Positions 27,001 through 45,000 of a DNA stretch of 64,000 nucleotides are shown here, one piece after another (the first letter of the stretch is position 1; the number at the start of each line of letters is the position of its first letter). Where the stretch lies: positions 1,240,001 to 1,304,000 of the forward strand of contig JANJGN010000088.1 of NCBI GenBank assembly GCA_026770705.1, read 5' to 3'. The stretch comes from Isurus oxyrinchus. Taxonomy: Eukaryota. The position numbers were made by a program.

Positions 27001-30000
27001 ATTGGAAGAAGAGCAGGGGAGTACTCTGCAATGTTCTGAGCCAGCCAACATTTATCCCTCAACCAAAACACCTAAAACCAGATGATCTGGTCATTACCCC
27101 AGTTCTTATGGTGGGAATTACTGTGCGCAAATTGGAATTGGTAAACCAAGAAAGACCAAAGCCATCCTGATGTTCGGATGATACAAGGATAATGGAGTTG
27201 TGCACTAATCATAGCAACCAGTCTCTTATCAATTAGTCCACAATAAACCCAGACAGGAGGCAAGGTAAGCCCAATGGTGGGAGCATTGGAAACCATAGGT
27301 CCAAGGACCCCTGTTCCTCACAAGCATGTTACACTCACCGCACATCATGTTCGAAGATACTCATTTACTGTCTCCCGAAACACAACAATAATGAACACTC
27401 AAAACCGAAACCTTTTCACATTATGTTTATTGAAAATGGATCAGTACATTGACATTTTGCCACATACAATGAACCCTTCTTGGGGTCTCACACAGGTTTC
27501 ACACTTGGTCAAATGCAGCACAAAAAACGTTTGAAAACCAACTCAGGACTTCAGATGTTTGGAGAGAACGATGTTTGTTGTAGGATCAGATGGTTAAATT
27601 TAAATAATTTCTTTCTCAGTTATTGAACAAGGTCAGATTTTGTTCACATTTTCTAGTGATCTGCGACAAAAAGCGAGATTTCATAGCAACCATGACAATC
27701 CTCTGGTTGTCTTAACCATCCATTTACAGGGATTATGTAAATGGGTGATTGAATCATTAGATGCTATGAACAGGATTTGAAGCCTTCAGTTAGAACAAGT
27801 GACACATTGACCAGGGTGGGTTTGCTGTGAGATTTATTGATGCTCCTGAACAGATTTGTTGTGACTGACTCGTGTCCCACCACACAGGAGTAAGTGGTGC
27901 CGCTGTTCCACTCGTCTGCGGAGACTGTCAACCGACTGCCCGAGTTCCAGCCACTTCTGCCATCCTCGGTCACCGGCTGGTTCACAAATCCTGACTTCAG
28001 AAGGGTGTCGTTGGCCATCCAGGCCAGGTAGATCTCTGCAGGGGAGAATCCGGTGACCAGGCAAACCAGGGTCGCGGTGTGGTCTGTCTCCATCTCATCT
28101 TGTGAAGGGGGAAGGAGGTAGACTTGAGGGTGAGTCTTAATGTCAACTGGAAACAGAGACAATGTAGGTTAGACTGAGCCCCCTCTCATCCTGCATACAC
28201 TCGACACGTTCTGCTTTTAACACAAATCTGGGCAACTTCTGCGTCCCCAGGGACACCTCCTCTATCAGAAAGTAAAGGCAATGACCTCTTTCTGGCCATT
28301 GTTGGGGTAGGGTGCAAGGGGCAGGATCATCAATCTTGCTGATTTTAAACTTGGGGAGGCAATGAACCATTGGGAATCTGCAAGAACAGTGTGCGGATGG
28401 TTAATAGGGATGTGCTGACCTTAAAATGATCGAATTAATCAAAACCCTTACAATCATGAGGGATTTCACCGGCAGGAGAGTCAGTAAACAGAGGGCAGAT
28501 ATTAAAGAGGAGCTGGCAAATGAACCAGTGGGAAGATGAGAATTTTTTTTTGCTCTGCGAGTTACGATTATTTGAAATGCGCTGTCTGAAGGAGGGTGGT
28601 GGAAGCAGTTAAATAGCAACTTTCACAAGGGAATTGGACATATGCTTGGAAAGGAGCAAATTTTAAGCCTATTGGGAAAGAGCAGATTGGGTGTCAGATT
28701 AATTCAATAGCTCTTGCAAAGAGCTGGCACAGGCATGATGGACCAAATGGCCTCCTGTGCTCCATGATTCTCTTAGAAATACCAGAGATCCACTTCCCAG
28801 CCCCTGCTTACTGTTGTAAAGAGGTAGGCTTCAGGAATTAATCTTGTCCTGTGGTGTCTGCTCCGTCTCCCTTTCCTCTTAATGGACTTGCTCATCTTCA
28901 ACCTACACCTCAGATGGACCTCTCTCACCGCTCCAATAGCTGGCTTGTTTCAGGCACTTCTTAATGTTGTGATAGCTGCTAATTCCTCTCCGTCTATCTC
29001 CCCTCACTGTGAACCCATCCCACAAGGACTTGTGTGATTTGGAGTGAGGCCATTGTGGAGATTTGAGGTTTTATCTGATCCATTTCTTAGCAGGTTTCGC
29101 ACATCTCTGGGCCATTAACACAGTGTGACACCCCATACTAGATAGTTTACCACTTGATGGTCATAAATCACTTCATTTTCTCAGACCAGACCCACAGCTT
29201 CATCCACACGTACCTTGGGCTTTCCTGATTGACCTCTTCTCAGGCGTTGGCAAACTCTTGTCCTCCACCAAACACAAATACTCTACCCCACTCTCCCACT
29301 CTGCAGCAAGGACTGTCAGTCTGCTGAAGATCATGTCTTTGTCTCCATTCCTCTTGGGACCCTGAGTCTTCACTCCATCTTCTCTCTTGATTCCATCCGC
29401 CTGCCAGGTTACCCTGACTCCCTCTAAATCACTGTGAAGTACCTCGCAAAGTATAGTCGCTGTCCTGTTCCTCCAGATCTCTTCAAAAGGAGGCTTCCTT
29501 AAGGTGACTGAGATCCCAGTGTCCAAACATTCATCTAGGAGAAAAATTATCATTGTTATTTCGTGATTCCCTCATGGGATGTGGACATGGCTTGCAAGGC
29601 TGGCATTTCATTCACATCGCCACATGTACAATAGTGGCTTGTTCGACTCTTTCAGAGGGCAGCTCTGAATCAGCCACATTGGTGTCTGCCTGTAGCCACA
29701 TCTGGGGCAGACAGGGTTAGGACAGCAGGTATCCTTCCCTCAAGGAAGATGAACAAAGCTGTTGGGTTTTTAATGACAATCTAATGCCTTCAAAGTCACT
29801 TTACTGATTCTAACGTTTTATTACCAATTTTTACTTTCTGCAACTGAATTCAAATTCTCAAGCTGTCTTAGATTTGAACTCAGTTGTCTGCATTAGTGAT
29901 TGTACATGTCAACCTTGGCACGTTGGTAGGGCAAGCTCCTCTACCTGCGATGGTTGTGCGTTCACGACCCACTACGGATACTCGAGCACAAATTCAAGAA

Positions 30001-42000: not shown

Positions 42001-45000
42001 AAGAAAGATGTACTCTATTCCCTCAGCATCTCGAGTAACTGTCACGATGCCAACTCCCATTCATCATCAATTTGACTGGGTTCCCTCTGACCCTCCCCTG
42101 AAATATTTGCTAATCCTTTCAGTTCTAGATTCCGGCAAATGGGCTCAACCTTTCAAATTTTAGATCCTGAGTTTCTTACTACACACGTTCAACTTTTTCT
42201 TCCTGGTACCTGACAATCTCACAGTGCCGATAACCAGTCTGAGATTGGCACAAATAGGGTAGCACTTCATAAAACTGAGACTTTGGGGATTTCAGGCAGA
42301 ATTTACAATTCTCCATAATAATGGGGACAAATTTAATCTCGACTTGACATTCCCCCAGTAACCTTTGACTCCCTTGTTAGTCAAGAATCTATCTTCATCT
42401 GCCTTAAAAATATTCATTGTCCCTGTTTCCACCGCTCTCTGGGTAAGAGAGTTCCAAAGATTCACGACACCATGAGAGAAAAAGATTTCTTCTCATCTCC
42501 ATCTTAAATGGGAGACCCCTTATTTTCAAACTGTTCCCCCAAGATCAAGTCTCTCCCACAAGGGGAAATGTCCTTTCAGCATCCGCCCTGTCAAGTCCCC
42601 TCAGGATCTGATATGTTTCAATGAGATCACCTCTCAATTTTCTAAACTCCAATGGATACAGGCCCAGCCTGTCCAACCTATCCTCATGAGATAACGCCCC
42701 CATCCCAGGTATCAGTTGAGTGAACCTTCTTTGAACTGCTTCTAATGATTTAAACACTTTCCTAAATAAGCAAGACCAAAACTGGACACTGTACCCTTGA
42801 TGTGGTCCCACCAATGTCCCATACAACTGTAGCAAAACACCCCTACTTTTCTATTCCATTCGCATTGCAATAAGCAACAACATTCCATTTGCCTTCTGAA
42901 CCACTTGCTGTGTCTATATTCTAACTTCTCCTGATTCATGTACCAGGACACTCAGATCCCTCTGCTCTTCAGAGTTGTGCAGTCTCTCTCCATTTAAATA
43001 ATATGCTGCTTTTCTATTCTTCCTGCCAAAGTAGACAAGTTCACATTTTCCCACGTTATACTCCATCTGCCAAATTTTTGCCACTCACTTAACCTATCTA
43101 TGTCCCTTTGCAGACTCCTTATATCCTCTTCACAACTTACTTTCCTACCTTTCTCTGTGTCATCAACAAATTTAGGAACTATACATTCGGTCCCTTCATC
43201 CAAGTCATTGATATAAATTGTAAATATTTGAGGCCTCAGCACTGATCCCTGTGACACTGTACTCATCACATCTATTCAACACAAAAAAGACCCATTTGTC
43301 CCTATTCTCTGCTTCCTGTTAGCTAACCAATACTCCATCCATGCTAATATATTTCTCCCTACACCAGGAGCTCTTATCTTGCATCATAATTTTTTATGTG
43401 GCATCTTGTCAGATGCCTTCTGGAAATCTAAGCACAGCACATCCACAAGTTCCCCTTTATGGATGTTGCTTGTTACTTACTTATAGAACTCCAATAAATT
43501 AGTTAAACATGATTTCTCTTTCACAAAGCCGTGTTGATTCTGCCTCATTGCATTGAGCTTTTCTAAGTGCCCCGCTATAACTATTTAATATCAGATTCCA
43601 GCAGTTTCCCTACAATAGATTTTAAACAAACTGGCCTGCAGTTTTCTGCTTTCGGTCTCCTTCCTTTCTTGAATAGAGGAATCACAGTCACAATTTTACA
43701 ATCTGATGGGACCTAATGTCCTTCCTTTTGTTACCGCAGTACTGCTGGCATGCAGCGATCAAATATATGGGTCCAAGAATTCAATCAGGTTCTATTGTGC
43801 AGCAAGCTCTTACATTGGTGGCTGATGTTTTCTTGTCCGATTTCATCATCACCCACCCCAACACCAGTACAGTTTTAAATGACAAATAATATCTTGTACT
43901 AACCTTTAGGTTTCATGATCTGACGCTCCACCATTTCATTTGACTTGTAACCCGCCTTACAGTGGTAGACTGTTTTGGCATTCCAATCTGATGCAGAGAC
44001 TTTGAGCACGCTGCTCATCATGTAATTCTTATCATTCCCCTGGACTGCCGCATACGTCTGAATTCCAGTGGTAATGACCCGATTGTTACTGGACCATATC
44101 AGAGTGATGCTCTTAGCATGAAAGTCCTTGACCAGGCAGAAGAAGCTGATCTCATCTTGGTCCCTGTCCATGCCACAGGAAGGGTTGGGGATGAAGACCG
44201 ATGGTGCAAACTGGGCAACTGAAATATAAATAGTTTCACACAGATAAGCCTAGTAAAGAAACACATATAAATATACGAACTAGGAGCAGGAGTGGGCCTT
44301 TTGGCCCTTTTGGCCCTGCTCTGCCATTTGATAATGGCTGATCTGATTGCAGCCTCAATCTACTTTCCTGTCTACCCTCTTTCACCTTTGACTCCCTTGT
44401 TAATCAGTGTAGAGGGAGCTTTACACTGTATCTAACCGCGAGCTGTACCTGTCCTGGGTGTGTTTGATGGGGACGGTGTAGAGGGAGCTTTACTCTGTAT
44501 CTAACCCCATGCTGTACCTGTCCTGGGAGTGTTTGATGGGGACAGTGTAGAGGGAGCTTTACACTGTATCTAACCGCGAGCTGTACCTGTCCTGGGTGTG
44601 TTTGATGGGGACAGTGTAGAGGGAGCTTTACTCTGTATCTAACCCTGTGCTGTACCTGTCCTGTGTGTGTTTGATGGGGACAGTGTAGAGGGAGCTTTAC
44701 TCTGTATCTAACCCCGTGCTGTATCTGCCCAGGGAGTGTTTGATGGGGACAGTGTAGAGGGAGCTTTACTCTGTATCTAACCGCGAGCTGTACCTGTCCT
44801 GGGTGTGTTTGATGGGGACGGTGTAGAGGGAGCTTTACTCTATATCTAACCCCGTGCTGTACCTGTCCTGGCAGTGTTTGATGGGGACAGTGTAGAGGGA
44901 GCTTTACTCTGTATCTAACCCTGTGCTGTACCTGTCCTGTGTGTGTTTGATGGGGACAGTGTAGAGGGAGCTTTACTCTGTATCTAACCCCGTGCTGTAT

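What the first reader, a model, noticed from the sequence alone, without database searches (positions are those of the whole stretch)
27764..44218. Ten constant exons: an extended IgW heavy chain built by triplicating a CH pair
Seen: CH1, CH2, three A/B pairs (303/318 nt, each with an ~90-nt intron), CH9 and CH10, all phase 1-1 and therefore freely skippable in frame. Established: the classical long shark IgW has 6 CH domains, and IgD/IgW is known for domain duplication. Inference: this cluster could encode a 9-10-CH chain, longer than the classical form; the duplicated unit carried the secretory exon with it.
Basis: partly seen in the sequence, partly recalled or inferred. Interest (0 to 1): 0.75.

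Follow-up and report, generated by a model that had tools for sequence, protein, structure and literature searches.

The report
Shark IgW gene with ten constant exons
This is an unrearranged shark IgW antibody heavy-chain gene whose constant region has grown to ten domain exons by copying one exon pair, a familiar way for this antibody class to grow, and one of the ten exons has lost its splice site.

Summary
The ten exons are real. They belong to a complete germline heavy-chain cluster: leader, V with a 23-spacer RSS, two D segments, J, and transmembrane exons.

Exon-by-exon comparison with named shark IgW proteins gives the order CH1-CH2-(CH3-CH4)x3-CH5-CH6. The closest relative is an 8-CH Carcharodon carcharias model; no database protein matches this locus exactly.

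Three cysteine-rich secretory exons follow CH2, pair 1 and pair 2. The third is a copy of the first with 1 difference in 152 nt, so a copied block did carry a secretory exon.

Two corrections:
- The third CH3-type exon (A3) has lost the G of its acceptor AG, so a 10-CH chain is not predicted by canonical splicing of this assembly.
- Extended IgW is not new. Reviews report 6-8 C exons in nurse shark, and predicted models with 10 CH (Scyliorhinus torazame) and 12 CH (Chiloscyllium punctatum) exist.

Verdict: a new member of a known kind, of moderate interest. Transcripts and read support could not be checked.

The parts
55502..55547 (-). Leader exon (ATG 55547-55545; donor ACAG|GTGAGG)
   Evidence: Read. 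It encodes MGFAPYLCVLLLCLT, identical to the N-terminus of the Carcharodon model P0016 printed.
55094..55389 (-). VH gene segment, germline (ends ...YYCAR)
   Evidence: Pfam V-set, E 2.8e-13. 77% identical to the P0016 V region by tblastn.
55055..55093 (-). V recombination signal: CACAGTG, 23-nt spacer, ACAAAAACT
54663..54677 (-). D1 segment between two CACAGTG heptamers
   Evidence: It lies in a duplicated block, 54463-54816 ~ 53738-54089 at 95.5%.
53937..53950 (-). D2 segment between two CACAGTG heptamers
53071..53118 (-). JH segment (..YLDYWGTGTFLEVTS, ends in phase 1 before GTAAGA)
   Evidence: tblastn match to the J part of P0016.
43904..44218 (-). CH1 exon (315 nt)
   Evidence: C1-set, 8.6e-16. 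91% to CH1 of P0016.
41641..41949 (-). CH2 exon (309 nt)
   Evidence: 6.5e-16.
40528..40679 (-). sec_a: cysteine-rich secretory exon after CH2 (49 aa plus stop; AATAAA at 40537)
   Evidence: 64% over 50 aa to the tail of 'splenic IgW, short secretory form-like' P0032, including the exon start GGNA. 54.5% over a 44-column alignment (41 query residues plus a 3-residue gap) to the nurse shark secreted IgW tail P0027.
37615..37917 (-). A1 = CH3-type exon, copy 1 (303 nt)
37208..37525 (-). B1 = CH4-type exon, copy 1 (318 nt)
36657..36829 (-). sec_b: divergent secretory exon after B1 (56 aa plus stop; no AATAAA, only AGTAAA at 36624)
34643..34945 (-). A2 = CH3-type exon, copy 2
34235..34552 (-). B2 = CH4-type exon, copy 2 (protein identical to B1; 3 nt differ)
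33705..33856 (-). sec_c: secretory exon after B2, a copy of sec_a (1 of 152 nt differs; AATAAA at 33714)
30791..31093 (-). A3 = CH3-type exon, copy 3; open frame and GT donor, but the acceptor AG is lost by a 1-nt deletion
   Evidence: Pfam C1-set, 3.1e-16.
30383..30700 (-). B3 = CH4-type exon, copy 3; old paralogue, grouped with the classical CH4
   Evidence: The tree groups it with the last B of Carcharodon, Cetorhinus and S. torazame and with sandbar shark CH4 (SH-aLRT 95).
29214..29534 (-). CH9 = CH5-type exon (321 nt)
   Evidence: 99% to P0016 and 80-93% to the CH5 of the other sharks.
27764..28146 (-). CH10 = CH6-type exon with secretory tailpiece (...KPTLVNVSLVLTEGFKSCS*)
   Evidence: The tail is nearly identical to that of the Triakis IgW chain P0029 printed.
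25945..26087 (-). TM1 exon, copy a (phase-1 acceptor; donor AAG|GTAACC)
   Evidence: (87-91% over 46 aa to TM tails of four of the five C. punctatum models used as queries; 73% over 44-45 aa to the Mobula and Pristis tails).
24436..24447 (-). TM2 exon, copy a (VQQ stop)
22524..22666 (-). TM1 exon, copy b (tandem duplicate)
21821..21832 (-). TM2 exon, copy b (IQQ stop; acceptor AAAG kept)
   Evidence: Coordinates derived from that alignment.
30701..33917 (-). Recent copy of 37526-40741 (secretory exon, 2.6-kb intron, A exon, A-B intron); 97.3% over 3232 nt
33832..34959 (-). Recent copy of 36805-37931 (A exon, B exon, ~400 nt downstream); 96.7% over 1128 nt

Best explanation
This is a complete, unrearranged IgW (IgD-orthologue) heavy-chain minilocus of a lamniform shark. 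The nearest relative is Carcharodon carcharias; the species was not determined. Read on the minus strand it is: leader-V(RSS23)-D1-D2-J, CH1, CH2, sec_a, [A1 B1], sec_b, [A2 B2], sec_c, [A3 B3], CH5-type, CH6-type with tailpiece, then two tandem TM1/TM2 exon sets.

The constant region has ten C1-set exons because the CH3-CH4 pair is present three times. An 8-CH arrangement (A-alpha B-alpha sec A-beta B-beta), as in the Carcharodon and Cetorhinus models, appears to have gained one further pair. This happened by unequal crossing-over or gene conversion between paralogous stretches. One of the copied stretches carried the post-CH2 secretory exon.

Inferred mode of action, by analogy with nurse shark IgW: one pre-mRNA is processed in alternative ways. 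Every CH exon ends in phase 1, and every secretory exon and TM1 begins in phase 1. The choice of poly(A) site and splice site therefore gives a ladder of products: secreted chains of 2, 4 or 6 CH ending in the cysteine-rich tail, long secreted chains ending in the CH6 tailpiece, and membrane chains joined from a CH2- or CH4-type exon to TM1.

As assembled, A3 cannot be spliced in canonically. The longest rule-abiding chain therefore has 9 CH (B2 joined to B3), or 8 if B3 is skipped too.

Shown: the exons, their frames, splice and poly(A) signals, orthology and the mosaic of copies. Inferred: the history of the copies and every statement about transcripts.
For: - Ten C1-set exons with exact phase-1 boundaries.
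- Germline V with heptamer, 23-nt spacer and nonamer; two D segments between heptamers; J with a donor.
- Leader and J-CH1 junction match the Carcharodon model P0016.
- Domain order CH1-CH2-A-B-CH5-CH6 in named IgW chains, and 8 CH in the Carcharodon, Cetorhinus, Heterodontus and S. torazame models (27 of 28 retrieved proteins could be mapped).
- Three secretory exons with phase-1 AG acceptors and open frames. They are homologous to the tails of nurse shark 'Secreted IgW heavy chain' and of Pristiophorus 'splenic IgW, short secretory form-like'.
- AATAAA overlaps the last codons of sec_a and sec_c.
- TM1/TM2 are phase-compatible and 87-91% identical over 46 aa to the TM tails of four of the five C. 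punctatum models used as queries, which join a B-type domain directly to TM.
- Mosaic identities. The 87 mismatches between units 1 and 3 show ts:tv of 60:27, as expected of real divergence.
- Trees: A1, A3 and Carcharodon A1 group together (SH-aLRT 98). B1, B2 and the first B of Carcharodon and Cetorhinus group together (99). B3 groups with the last B of other sharks and with sandbar shark CH4 (95).
- Reviews: nurse shark IgW has 6-8 C exons, secreted forms with 2, 4, 6 or 8 C domains and membrane forms with 2 or 4, all made by alternative splicing.
Against: - No transcript, read-depth or second-haplotype data could be consulted, so no isoform is shown.
- A3 lacks its acceptor.
- sec_b has no AATAAA or ATTAAA, only AGTAAA 33 nt past its stop, so it may be little used.
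- B3 differs from B1 with pN/pS of 0.161/0.220, which is compatible with relaxed constraint.
- No simple single crossover between two 8-CH genes gives the observed order (alpha, beta/alpha, alpha/beta); at least two events or a donor cluster of another type are needed.
- The primary paper on nurse shark IgW gene structure (Zhang, Du Pasquier and Hsu 2013) was not held. Its content is known here only through reviews and recall.
Confidence: 0.85

Rival explanations
1. The full 10-CH chain is made. On this reading the missing G at the A3 acceptor is an assembly or consensus error, or a private allele, and the normal gene splices all ten CH exons.
For: - A3 keeps an open frame, its GT donor, both domain cysteines and the tryptophan, and a C1-set score as good as A1's.
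- It differs from A1 at only 7 of 303 nt, 5 synonymous and 2 not.
- The defect is a single 1-nt indel among 7 small indels in 3.2 kb.
- A predicted 10-CH model with the same order exists in Scyliorhinus torazame (P0011).
Against: - The sequence as given has no AG at or near the site, and an in-frame stop lies just upstream.
- Exon and intron are equally diverged (about 97-98%), so the intact frame says little about selection.
- To reach CH5-CH6 the transcript must also bypass three internal terminal exons.
Confidence: 0.2
2. Assembly artefact. On this reading the third pair is a false duplication or a chimeric join between two paralogous IgW clusters, and the real locus has 8 CH exons like the Carcharodon model.
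For: - The region is repetitive, with exact shared stretches of up to 389 nt.
- The closest annotated relative has 8 CH.
- The observed order needs more than one simple crossover.
- Reads could not be inspected.
Against: - The copies differ by 2.7% with a natural ts:tv of 60:27, and by 56 of 318 nt in B3 against B1, which I judge too much for allelic copies (no heterozygosity figure for this species was consulted); each copy also sits in a distinct context.
- There are no N runs or gaps.
- The longest exact repeats, under 400 nt, should be spanned by long reads, if the assembly is long-read (not known here).
- Loci with 3, 4 or more pairs are predicted in four other elasmobranch genera.
Confidence: 0.07
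3. It is not IgW but another multi-domain immunoglobulin-like gene with duplicated C-exon pairs, such as UrIg2, IgM or IgNAR.
For: - UrIg2 has 9-11 C domains made by repeated duplication of two adjacent exons and lies near the IgH clusters (PMC12227049, section read).
- Automatic names of the nearest models say 'immunoglobulin mu heavy chain-like'.
Against: - UrIg2 has a single-exon VJ without recombination signals and is described only with a transmembrane/cytoplasmic end. This gene has separate V, D, D and J segments with heptamers, plus secretory tails.
- All exons align in order to proteins named IgW.
- The cysteine-rich tail matches the 'IgW short secretory form'.
- No UrIg2 sequence was available for a direct comparison.
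Confidence: 0.01

Closest known systems
Nurse shark (Ginglymostoma cirratum) IgW miniloci (Zhang, Du Pasquier and Hsu, J Immunol 2013). Known here through reviews PMC5192425, PMC4279169 and PMC6795676 (passages read) and through proteins P0023, P0026 and P0027.
   Same: - V-D-J cluster followed by more than six C exons.
- Alternative RNA processing gives secreted forms of 2, 4, 6 or 8 C domains and membrane forms of 2 or 4.
- A cysteine-rich tail homologous to sec_a, sec_b and sec_c.
- From my recollection of the abstract only: two interspersed secretory exons.
   Different: - Ten C exons instead of 6-8.
- Three interspersed secretory exons.
- Two tandem TM exon sets.
- One pair member (A3) without an acceptor.
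- Domain identity is only 53-87%.
Carcharodon carcharias predicted 'immunoglobulin mu heavy chain-like' protein, 990 aa (P0016), and the Cetorhinus maximus 985-aa model (P0018)
   Same: Nearest sequences. For P0016 the exon identities are CH1 91%, CH2 91%, A 97%, B 96%, B3 92%, CH5 99% and CH6 97%. The leader is the same, and the order is A-alpha, B-alpha, A-beta, B-beta.
   Different: They have two CH3-CH4 pairs (8 CH). The window has an extra B-alpha, secretory exon, intron and A-alpha between A-beta and B-beta. No protein in the database is identical to this locus.
Predicted long IgW-like models in other elasmobranchs: Scyliorhinus torazame P0011 (10 CH), Chiloscyllium punctatum P0003 (12 CH), Mobula birostris P0002 (six pairs) and Pristis pectinata P0001/P0017
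   Same: The same plan of CH1-CH2-(A-B)n-CH5-CH6, or (A-B)n joined to TM.
   Different: - Other orders of sharks and rays.
- Most extra copies cluster within their own lineage in the A and B trees, so the expansions or their homogenisation are largely lineage-specific.
- These are unnamed automatic predictions. The papers I searched do not describe them.
Domain-block duplications in IgD/IgW of bony fishes (sturgeon C-delta2-C-delta3 repeats, coelacanth C-omega3-5 x4), and UrIg2 of sharks
   Same: Growth of the chain by tandem copying of adjacent phase-1 C exons, followed by homogenisation (PMC5192425 passages; PMC12227049 section 7).
   Different: - Different exons are copied.
- No interspersed secretory exon is reported in the passages I read.
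- UrIg2 does not rearrange.

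Membership tests
Cartilaginous-fish IgW (IgD orthologue) heavy-chain cluster | Minilocus organisation: one V, D segments and one J with recombination signals, followed by one set of C exons | tested here: met
   - V ends YYCAR, followed by CACAGTG, a 23-nt spacer and ACAAAAACT.
- D1 and D2 each lie between CACAGTG heptamers.
- J has a GTAAGA donor.
- There is only one V, one J and one C set in 64 kb.
- The spacer length of the J signal is ambiguous in my reading.
Cartilaginous-fish IgW (IgD orthologue) heavy-chain cluster | C domains orthologous, in order, to CH1-CH6 of named IgW chains | tested here: met
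   blastp of the retrieved proteins against the ten exon translations. Sandbar shark 'IgW heavy chain' P0022 and nurse shark 'IgNARC' P0023 map as CH1-CH2-A-B-CH9-CH10. A banded houndshark IgW chain (P0029) was retrieved with CH1 at 67% but was not mapped domain by domain.
Cartilaginous-fish IgW (IgD orthologue) heavy-chain cluster | Last C exon carries a secretory tailpiece with an N-glycosylation site and a near-terminal cysteine | tested here: met
   CH10 ends KPTLVNVSLVLTEGFKSCS-stop. The Triakis IgW chain ends KPTLVNVSLVLTESFKSCS.
Cartilaginous-fish IgW (IgD orthologue) heavy-chain cluster | Separate cysteine-rich secretory exon after CH2 (short form) | tested here: met
   sec_a is 64% identical over 50 aa to the tail of the Pristiophorus 'splenic IgW, short secretory form-like' protein, with a matching exon start. 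Pfam has no family for it: 0 hits for 2 tails at E up to 10.
Cartilaginous-fish IgW (IgD orthologue) heavy-chain cluster | Membrane form made by joining a CH2- or CH4-type exon to TM exons | not testable with these tools
   TM1 and TM2 exons are present, open and phase-compatible. Squalus and C. punctatum proteins show the B-to-TM join. No transcripts of this species were available.
Extended IgW with duplicated CH3-CH4 pair (nurse-shark type, 8 C exons) | Extra C exons are copies of the CH3-CH4 pair, with a secretory exon between pairs | tested here: met
   There are three A/B pairs, with sec_b after pair 1 and sec_c after pair 2. The nurse shark gene map itself was not seen.
Extended IgW with duplicated CH3-CH4 pair (nurse-shark type, 8 C exons) | All C exons functional (splice sites and frames intact) | tested here: not met
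   A3 lacks the acceptor AG. The other nine exons are intact.
UrIg2 (non-rearranging Ig-like gene with duplicated C-exon pairs) | [quoted passage not shown] | tested here: not met
   Separate V, D, D and J segments with heptamers, three secretory exons and a tailpiece. The definition is taken from PMC12227049, section 7. No UrIg2 sequence was compared.
Shark IgM | Four C-mu domains | tested here: not met
   There are ten C exons. The domain-by-domain best matches are proteins named IgW. The 'mu heavy chain-like' labels of P0016 and P0018 are automatic names.

The most novel reading that the evidence does not exclude
The block of CH3-CH4 pair plus cysteine-rich secretory exon may be an expandable cassette. 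In this lamniform locus it would provide a graded ladder from a single rearranged V: secreted chains of 2, 4 and 6 CH with the cysteine-rich tail, long chains of 8-10 CH with the tailpiece, and membrane chains with a choice of two TM exon sets. That would be more C-region isoforms than have been shown experimentally for any shark Ig gene. Expansions in lamniform, carcharhiniform and orectolobiform sharks and in batoids that look largely independent would then point to recurrent selection for longer, or more varied, IgW.
Probability: 0.3. Interest if true: 0.5.

Novelty: new member of a known kind. Interest (0 to 1): 0.35.

Why it matters
IgW/IgD is the most plastic antibody class, and its function in sharks is still unknown. 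The reviews I read give 6-8 C exons as the range for cartilaginous fish. This locus, together with unnamed predicted models in four other genera, shows that genomes hold 10, 12 or more.

Here the copied block took a secretory exon with it, so each added pair can create a new secreted length class. That gives a concrete, testable picture of how C-region isoform diversity grows in a cluster-type locus that has no conventional class switching.

The lost acceptor of A3 also shows such additions decaying again. The practical value is for annotation: these genes are currently labelled 'mu heavy chain-like' or 'uncharacterized'.

Tried and rejected
- **Frame error.** The first Pfam call used wrong frames. 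It was repeated with phase-corrected coordinates.
- **Primary paper.** Zhang et al. 2013 is not held, by DOI or by PMC id. I relied on three reviews instead.
- **Literature.** Five searches ran and a sixth was rejected for an over-long term. None turned up a paper describing shark IgW with more than 8 C exons, or IgW gene structure in Carcharodon. I read only listings and the passages cited.
- **Secretory tail searches.** The word-indexed search with sec_a among longer proteins found nothing. The exhaustive HMMER search found 5 proteins at E up to 0.001. Two are true tails (P0032, P0034). P0036 was read and is an unrelated zinc-finger-type repeat protein. P0033 and P0035 were not read; I judge them spurious only from their 8 and 24 matched stretches. 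So no 4-CH or 6-CH protein ending in this tail was recovered beyond nurse shark P0027. Pfam has no family for the tail.
- **Fourth secretory exon.** I looked between B3 and CH5. There is none, only a 60-nt weak similarity just after B3.
- **Single-crossover history.** I tried to derive the observed order from one unequal crossover between two 8-CH genes. It does not work, so the history is left open.
- **Joined model.** No whole-chain search, fold or complex prediction was made.
- **Other genomes.** Other IgW clusters of the same genome therefore stayed unchecked.
- **Supplements.** Table S1 and figure S1 of PMC12227049 may list IgW clusters of several sharks and could bear on novelty.

Full report
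**1. What is there**

The gene lies on the minus strand. Stop-to-stop frames and a base-by-base reading give ten exons:

| Exon | Coordinates | Length (nt) |
|---|---|---|
| CH1 | 44218-43904 | 315 |
| CH2 | 41949-41641 | 309 |
| A1 | 37917-37615 | 303 |
| B1 | 37525-37208 | 318 |
| A2 | 34945-34643 | 303 |
| B2 | 34552-34235 | 318 |
| A3 | 31093-30791 | 303 |
| B3 | 30700-30383 | 318 |
| CH9 | 29534-29214 | 321 |
| CH10 | 28146-27764 | 383, including the stop |

- The nine internal exons are multiples of three and phase 1 at both ends.
- The A-B introns are 89, 90 and 90 nt.
- 8 of 8 exons sent to Pfam are C1-set domains, at E 1.5e-10 to 5.5e-21. A2 and B2 were not sent; they differ from A1 and B1 at 19 and 3 nt.
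- tblastn finds exactly these ten C-type sites, one V and one J in the window.
- The window holds no N.

**2. One exon is defective**

- Where A1 and A2 have ...cttcccAG|aa, A3 has ...cttcccA-aa. The G of the acceptor is deleted (alignment; raw reads of both sites).
- An in-frame TAA lies 14 nt upstream, with no AG in between.
- The first AG inside the exon is out of frame. The next one, 36 nt in, is in frame but, in my reading of the sequence, has no pyrimidine tract.
- Otherwise A3 is intact (open frame, GT donor) and differs from A1 at 7 of 303 nt.
- The deletion is one of 7 small indels in 3.2 kb between units 1 and 3. I cannot tell a true allele from a consensus error.

**3. Context: a complete germline heavy-chain cluster**

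- Upstream lie a split leader (55547-55502) and a V segment (55389-55094; V-set, E 2.8e-13).
- The V segment ends YYCAR and is followed by CACAGTG, a 23-nt spacer and ACAAAAACT.
- Two D segments follow, each between CACAGTG heptamers.
- A J segment (53118-53071) ends in phase 1 before GTAAGA.
- Downstream of CH10 lie TM1 (26087-25945) and TM2 (24447, encoding VQQ-stop).
- A 3.4-kb tandem duplication supplies a second open set: TM1b at 22666-22524 and TM2b near 21832, encoding IQQ-stop.
- The rest of the window is tandem arrays and reverse-transcriptase remnants.

**4. Identity**

I searched exon by exon and did not join the exons into a spliced model.

- With the B1 exon, the best hits are predicted proteins of Carcharodon carcharias (990 aa, 96%) and Cetorhinus maximus (985 aa, 93%). 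Proteins named IgW from sandbar shark, nurse shark and spiny dogfish follow.
- With CH1, the best hit is again Carcharodon, at 91%. No protein is identical, so this locus is not in the protein collection.
- I mapped 27 of the 28 retrieved proteins onto the ten exons.
  - The classical IgW chains (782-793 aa) read CH1-CH2-A-B-CH9-CH10. Hence A is CH3, B is CH4, CH9 is CH5 and CH10 is CH6.
  - The Carcharodon, Cetorhinus and Heterodontus models and one S. torazame model have two A-B pairs (8 CH).
  - S. torazame P0011 has three pairs (10 CH).
  - C. punctatum P0003 has four pairs (12 CH).
  - Mobula has six pairs.
- UrIg2 also grew by duplicating exon pairs, but it has an unsplit VJ exon and only a membrane end (PMC12227049, section 7). 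It is excluded by the V/D/J signals and the secretory ends found here.

**5. Secretory exons**

Searching the window with the tail of nurse shark 'Secreted IgW heavy chain' gives three sites. Read out, they are:

| Exon | Coordinates | Position | Notes |
|---|---|---|---|
| sec_a | 40679-40528 | after CH2 | 49 residues; AATAAA over the last codons |
| sec_b | 36829-36657 | after B1 | 56 residues; 51% identical to sec_a |
| sec_c | 33856-33705 | after B2 | same 49 residues as sec_a; AATAAA over the last codons |

- All three have AG acceptors in phase 1 and open frames with 7-8 cysteines.
- sec_a and sec_c differ at 1 of 152 nt.
- sec_b has a duplicated acceptor motif and only an AGTAAA downstream.
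- The Pristiophorus 'splenic IgW, short secretory form-like' protein joins CH2 to a tail that is 64% identical to sec_a from the first residue.
- There is no such exon between B3 and CH5.

**6. How the copies relate**

- Self-comparison shows a mosaic, not three equal units.
- Unit 3 matches unit 1 from just upstream of the secretory exon, through the 2.6-kb intron and the A exon, to the A-B intron. This is 97.3% over 3232 nt, with ts:tv of 60:27.
- Identity then falls across the B exon from 88% to 78%; 56 of 318 nt differ.
- Unit 2 matches unit 1 from the A exon through B and about 400 nt downstream (96.7% over 1128 nt; B1 and B2 differ at 3 nt). Its secretory exon and intron are old paralogues of unit 1's (55-75%).
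- Trees agree (quick method, 42 and 43 domain rows):
  - A1, A3 and Carcharodon A1 form a group (SH-aLRT 98).
  - B1, B2 and the first B of Carcharodon and Cetorhinus form a group (99).
  - B3 groups with the last B of Carcharodon, Cetorhinus and S. torazame and with sandbar shark CH4 (95).
- My inference is a lamniform 8-CH gene (A-alpha B-alpha, sec-beta, A-beta B-beta) that gained B-alpha, sec-alpha, intron-alpha and A-alpha between A-beta and B-beta. This needs more than one simple crossover, or a donor cluster of another type, so I leave the history open.
- The divergence and its transition bias argue against a false duplication of alleles. Read support could not be checked.

**7. How it most likely works (inference)**

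- Reviews state that nurse shark IgW clusters have six to eight C exons.
- Here every CH exon ends in phase 1, and every secretory exon and TM1 starts in phase 1.
- The locus can therefore give chains of 2, 4 or 6 CH with the cysteine-rich tail, long chains with the CH6 tailpiece, and membrane chains. This matches the C. punctatum and Squalus proteins that join a B domain to TM.
- By canonical rules the long form has at most 9 CH in this assembly.

**8. Novelty**

- Published descriptions that I could see stop at 8 C exons. Five literature searches that ran found nothing beyond that (a sixth was rejected), and only listings and cited passages were read.
- Unnamed predicted proteins with 10 and 12 CH already exist.
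- This is a further member of a known kind, with some points of interest: a third internal secretory exon, a duplicated TM block and a pair member caught losing its splice site.

**9. Left open**

- Transcripts, read depth, other clusters of the same genome and the species were not determined.
- The primary nurse shark paper was not held.
- Paper supplements were closed.

Noticed in passing
window 44405-46148: A 69-bp unit repeated about 25 times (91% matches) fills 1.7 kb of the J-to-CH1 intron. That intron is where switch-like recombination between shark Ig clusters has been reported in the literature (reviews). I did not test motif content.
   Followed up: no
window 55862-58047: A 43-bp unit repeated about 51 times (95% matches) begins roughly 300 bp upstream of the V leader ATG.
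   Followed up: no
window 20630-27467 (22230-24050 ~ 25660-27467; 21433-22012 ~ 24052-24630): The block holding the TM exons is tandemly duplicated, with a period of about 3.4 kb and 89-94.5% identity. Both TM1 copies and both TM2 copies (VQQ-stop and IQQ-stop) keep open frames and splice sites.
   Followed up: partly
window 39430-39507 and 32605-32682 (minus strand): Both alpha-type introns hold a stretch matching the last 26 residues of the Cetorhinus model 'pancreatic IgW, short secretory form-like' (85-88%), but with an in-frame stop in the window. It may be an alternative terminal exon in the basking shark or a prediction artefact.
   Followed up: no
window 36657-36829: sec_b has a duplicated acceptor motif that adds 7 residues (GNTNLPVPG...) and has lost the AATAAA that overlaps the stop in sec_a and sec_c. 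The same longer start (GGTVNLPVPGGN) follows CH2 in an unnamed 133-aa fragment, P0034.
   Followed up: partly
window 53738-54089 and 54463-54816: The two D segments sit in a 354-bp duplicated block (95.5%), each flanked by CACAGTG heptamers. The J signal has an unusual heptamer (CGCAGTG), and its best nonamer is 23 nt away, which would not fit the 12/23 rule with the 3' signal of D2.
   Followed up: partly
window 47702-48375 (+), 59005-59385 (+), 63618-63920 (+), 14000-18300 (+), 42548-43275 (-): Retrotransposon remnants. RVT_1 hits lie in the J-CH1 intron and upstream of V. LINE-like frames lie at 14-18 kb. Two frames in the CH1-CH2 intron resemble such elements by eye but had no Pfam hit.
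   Followed up: partly
window 37840-37850 and 34868-34878 versus 31016-31026 (minus strand): A1 and A2 carry an extra cysteine three residues after the first domain cysteine (VCKVVCS), while A3 has arginine there (VCIVVRS).
   Followed up: no
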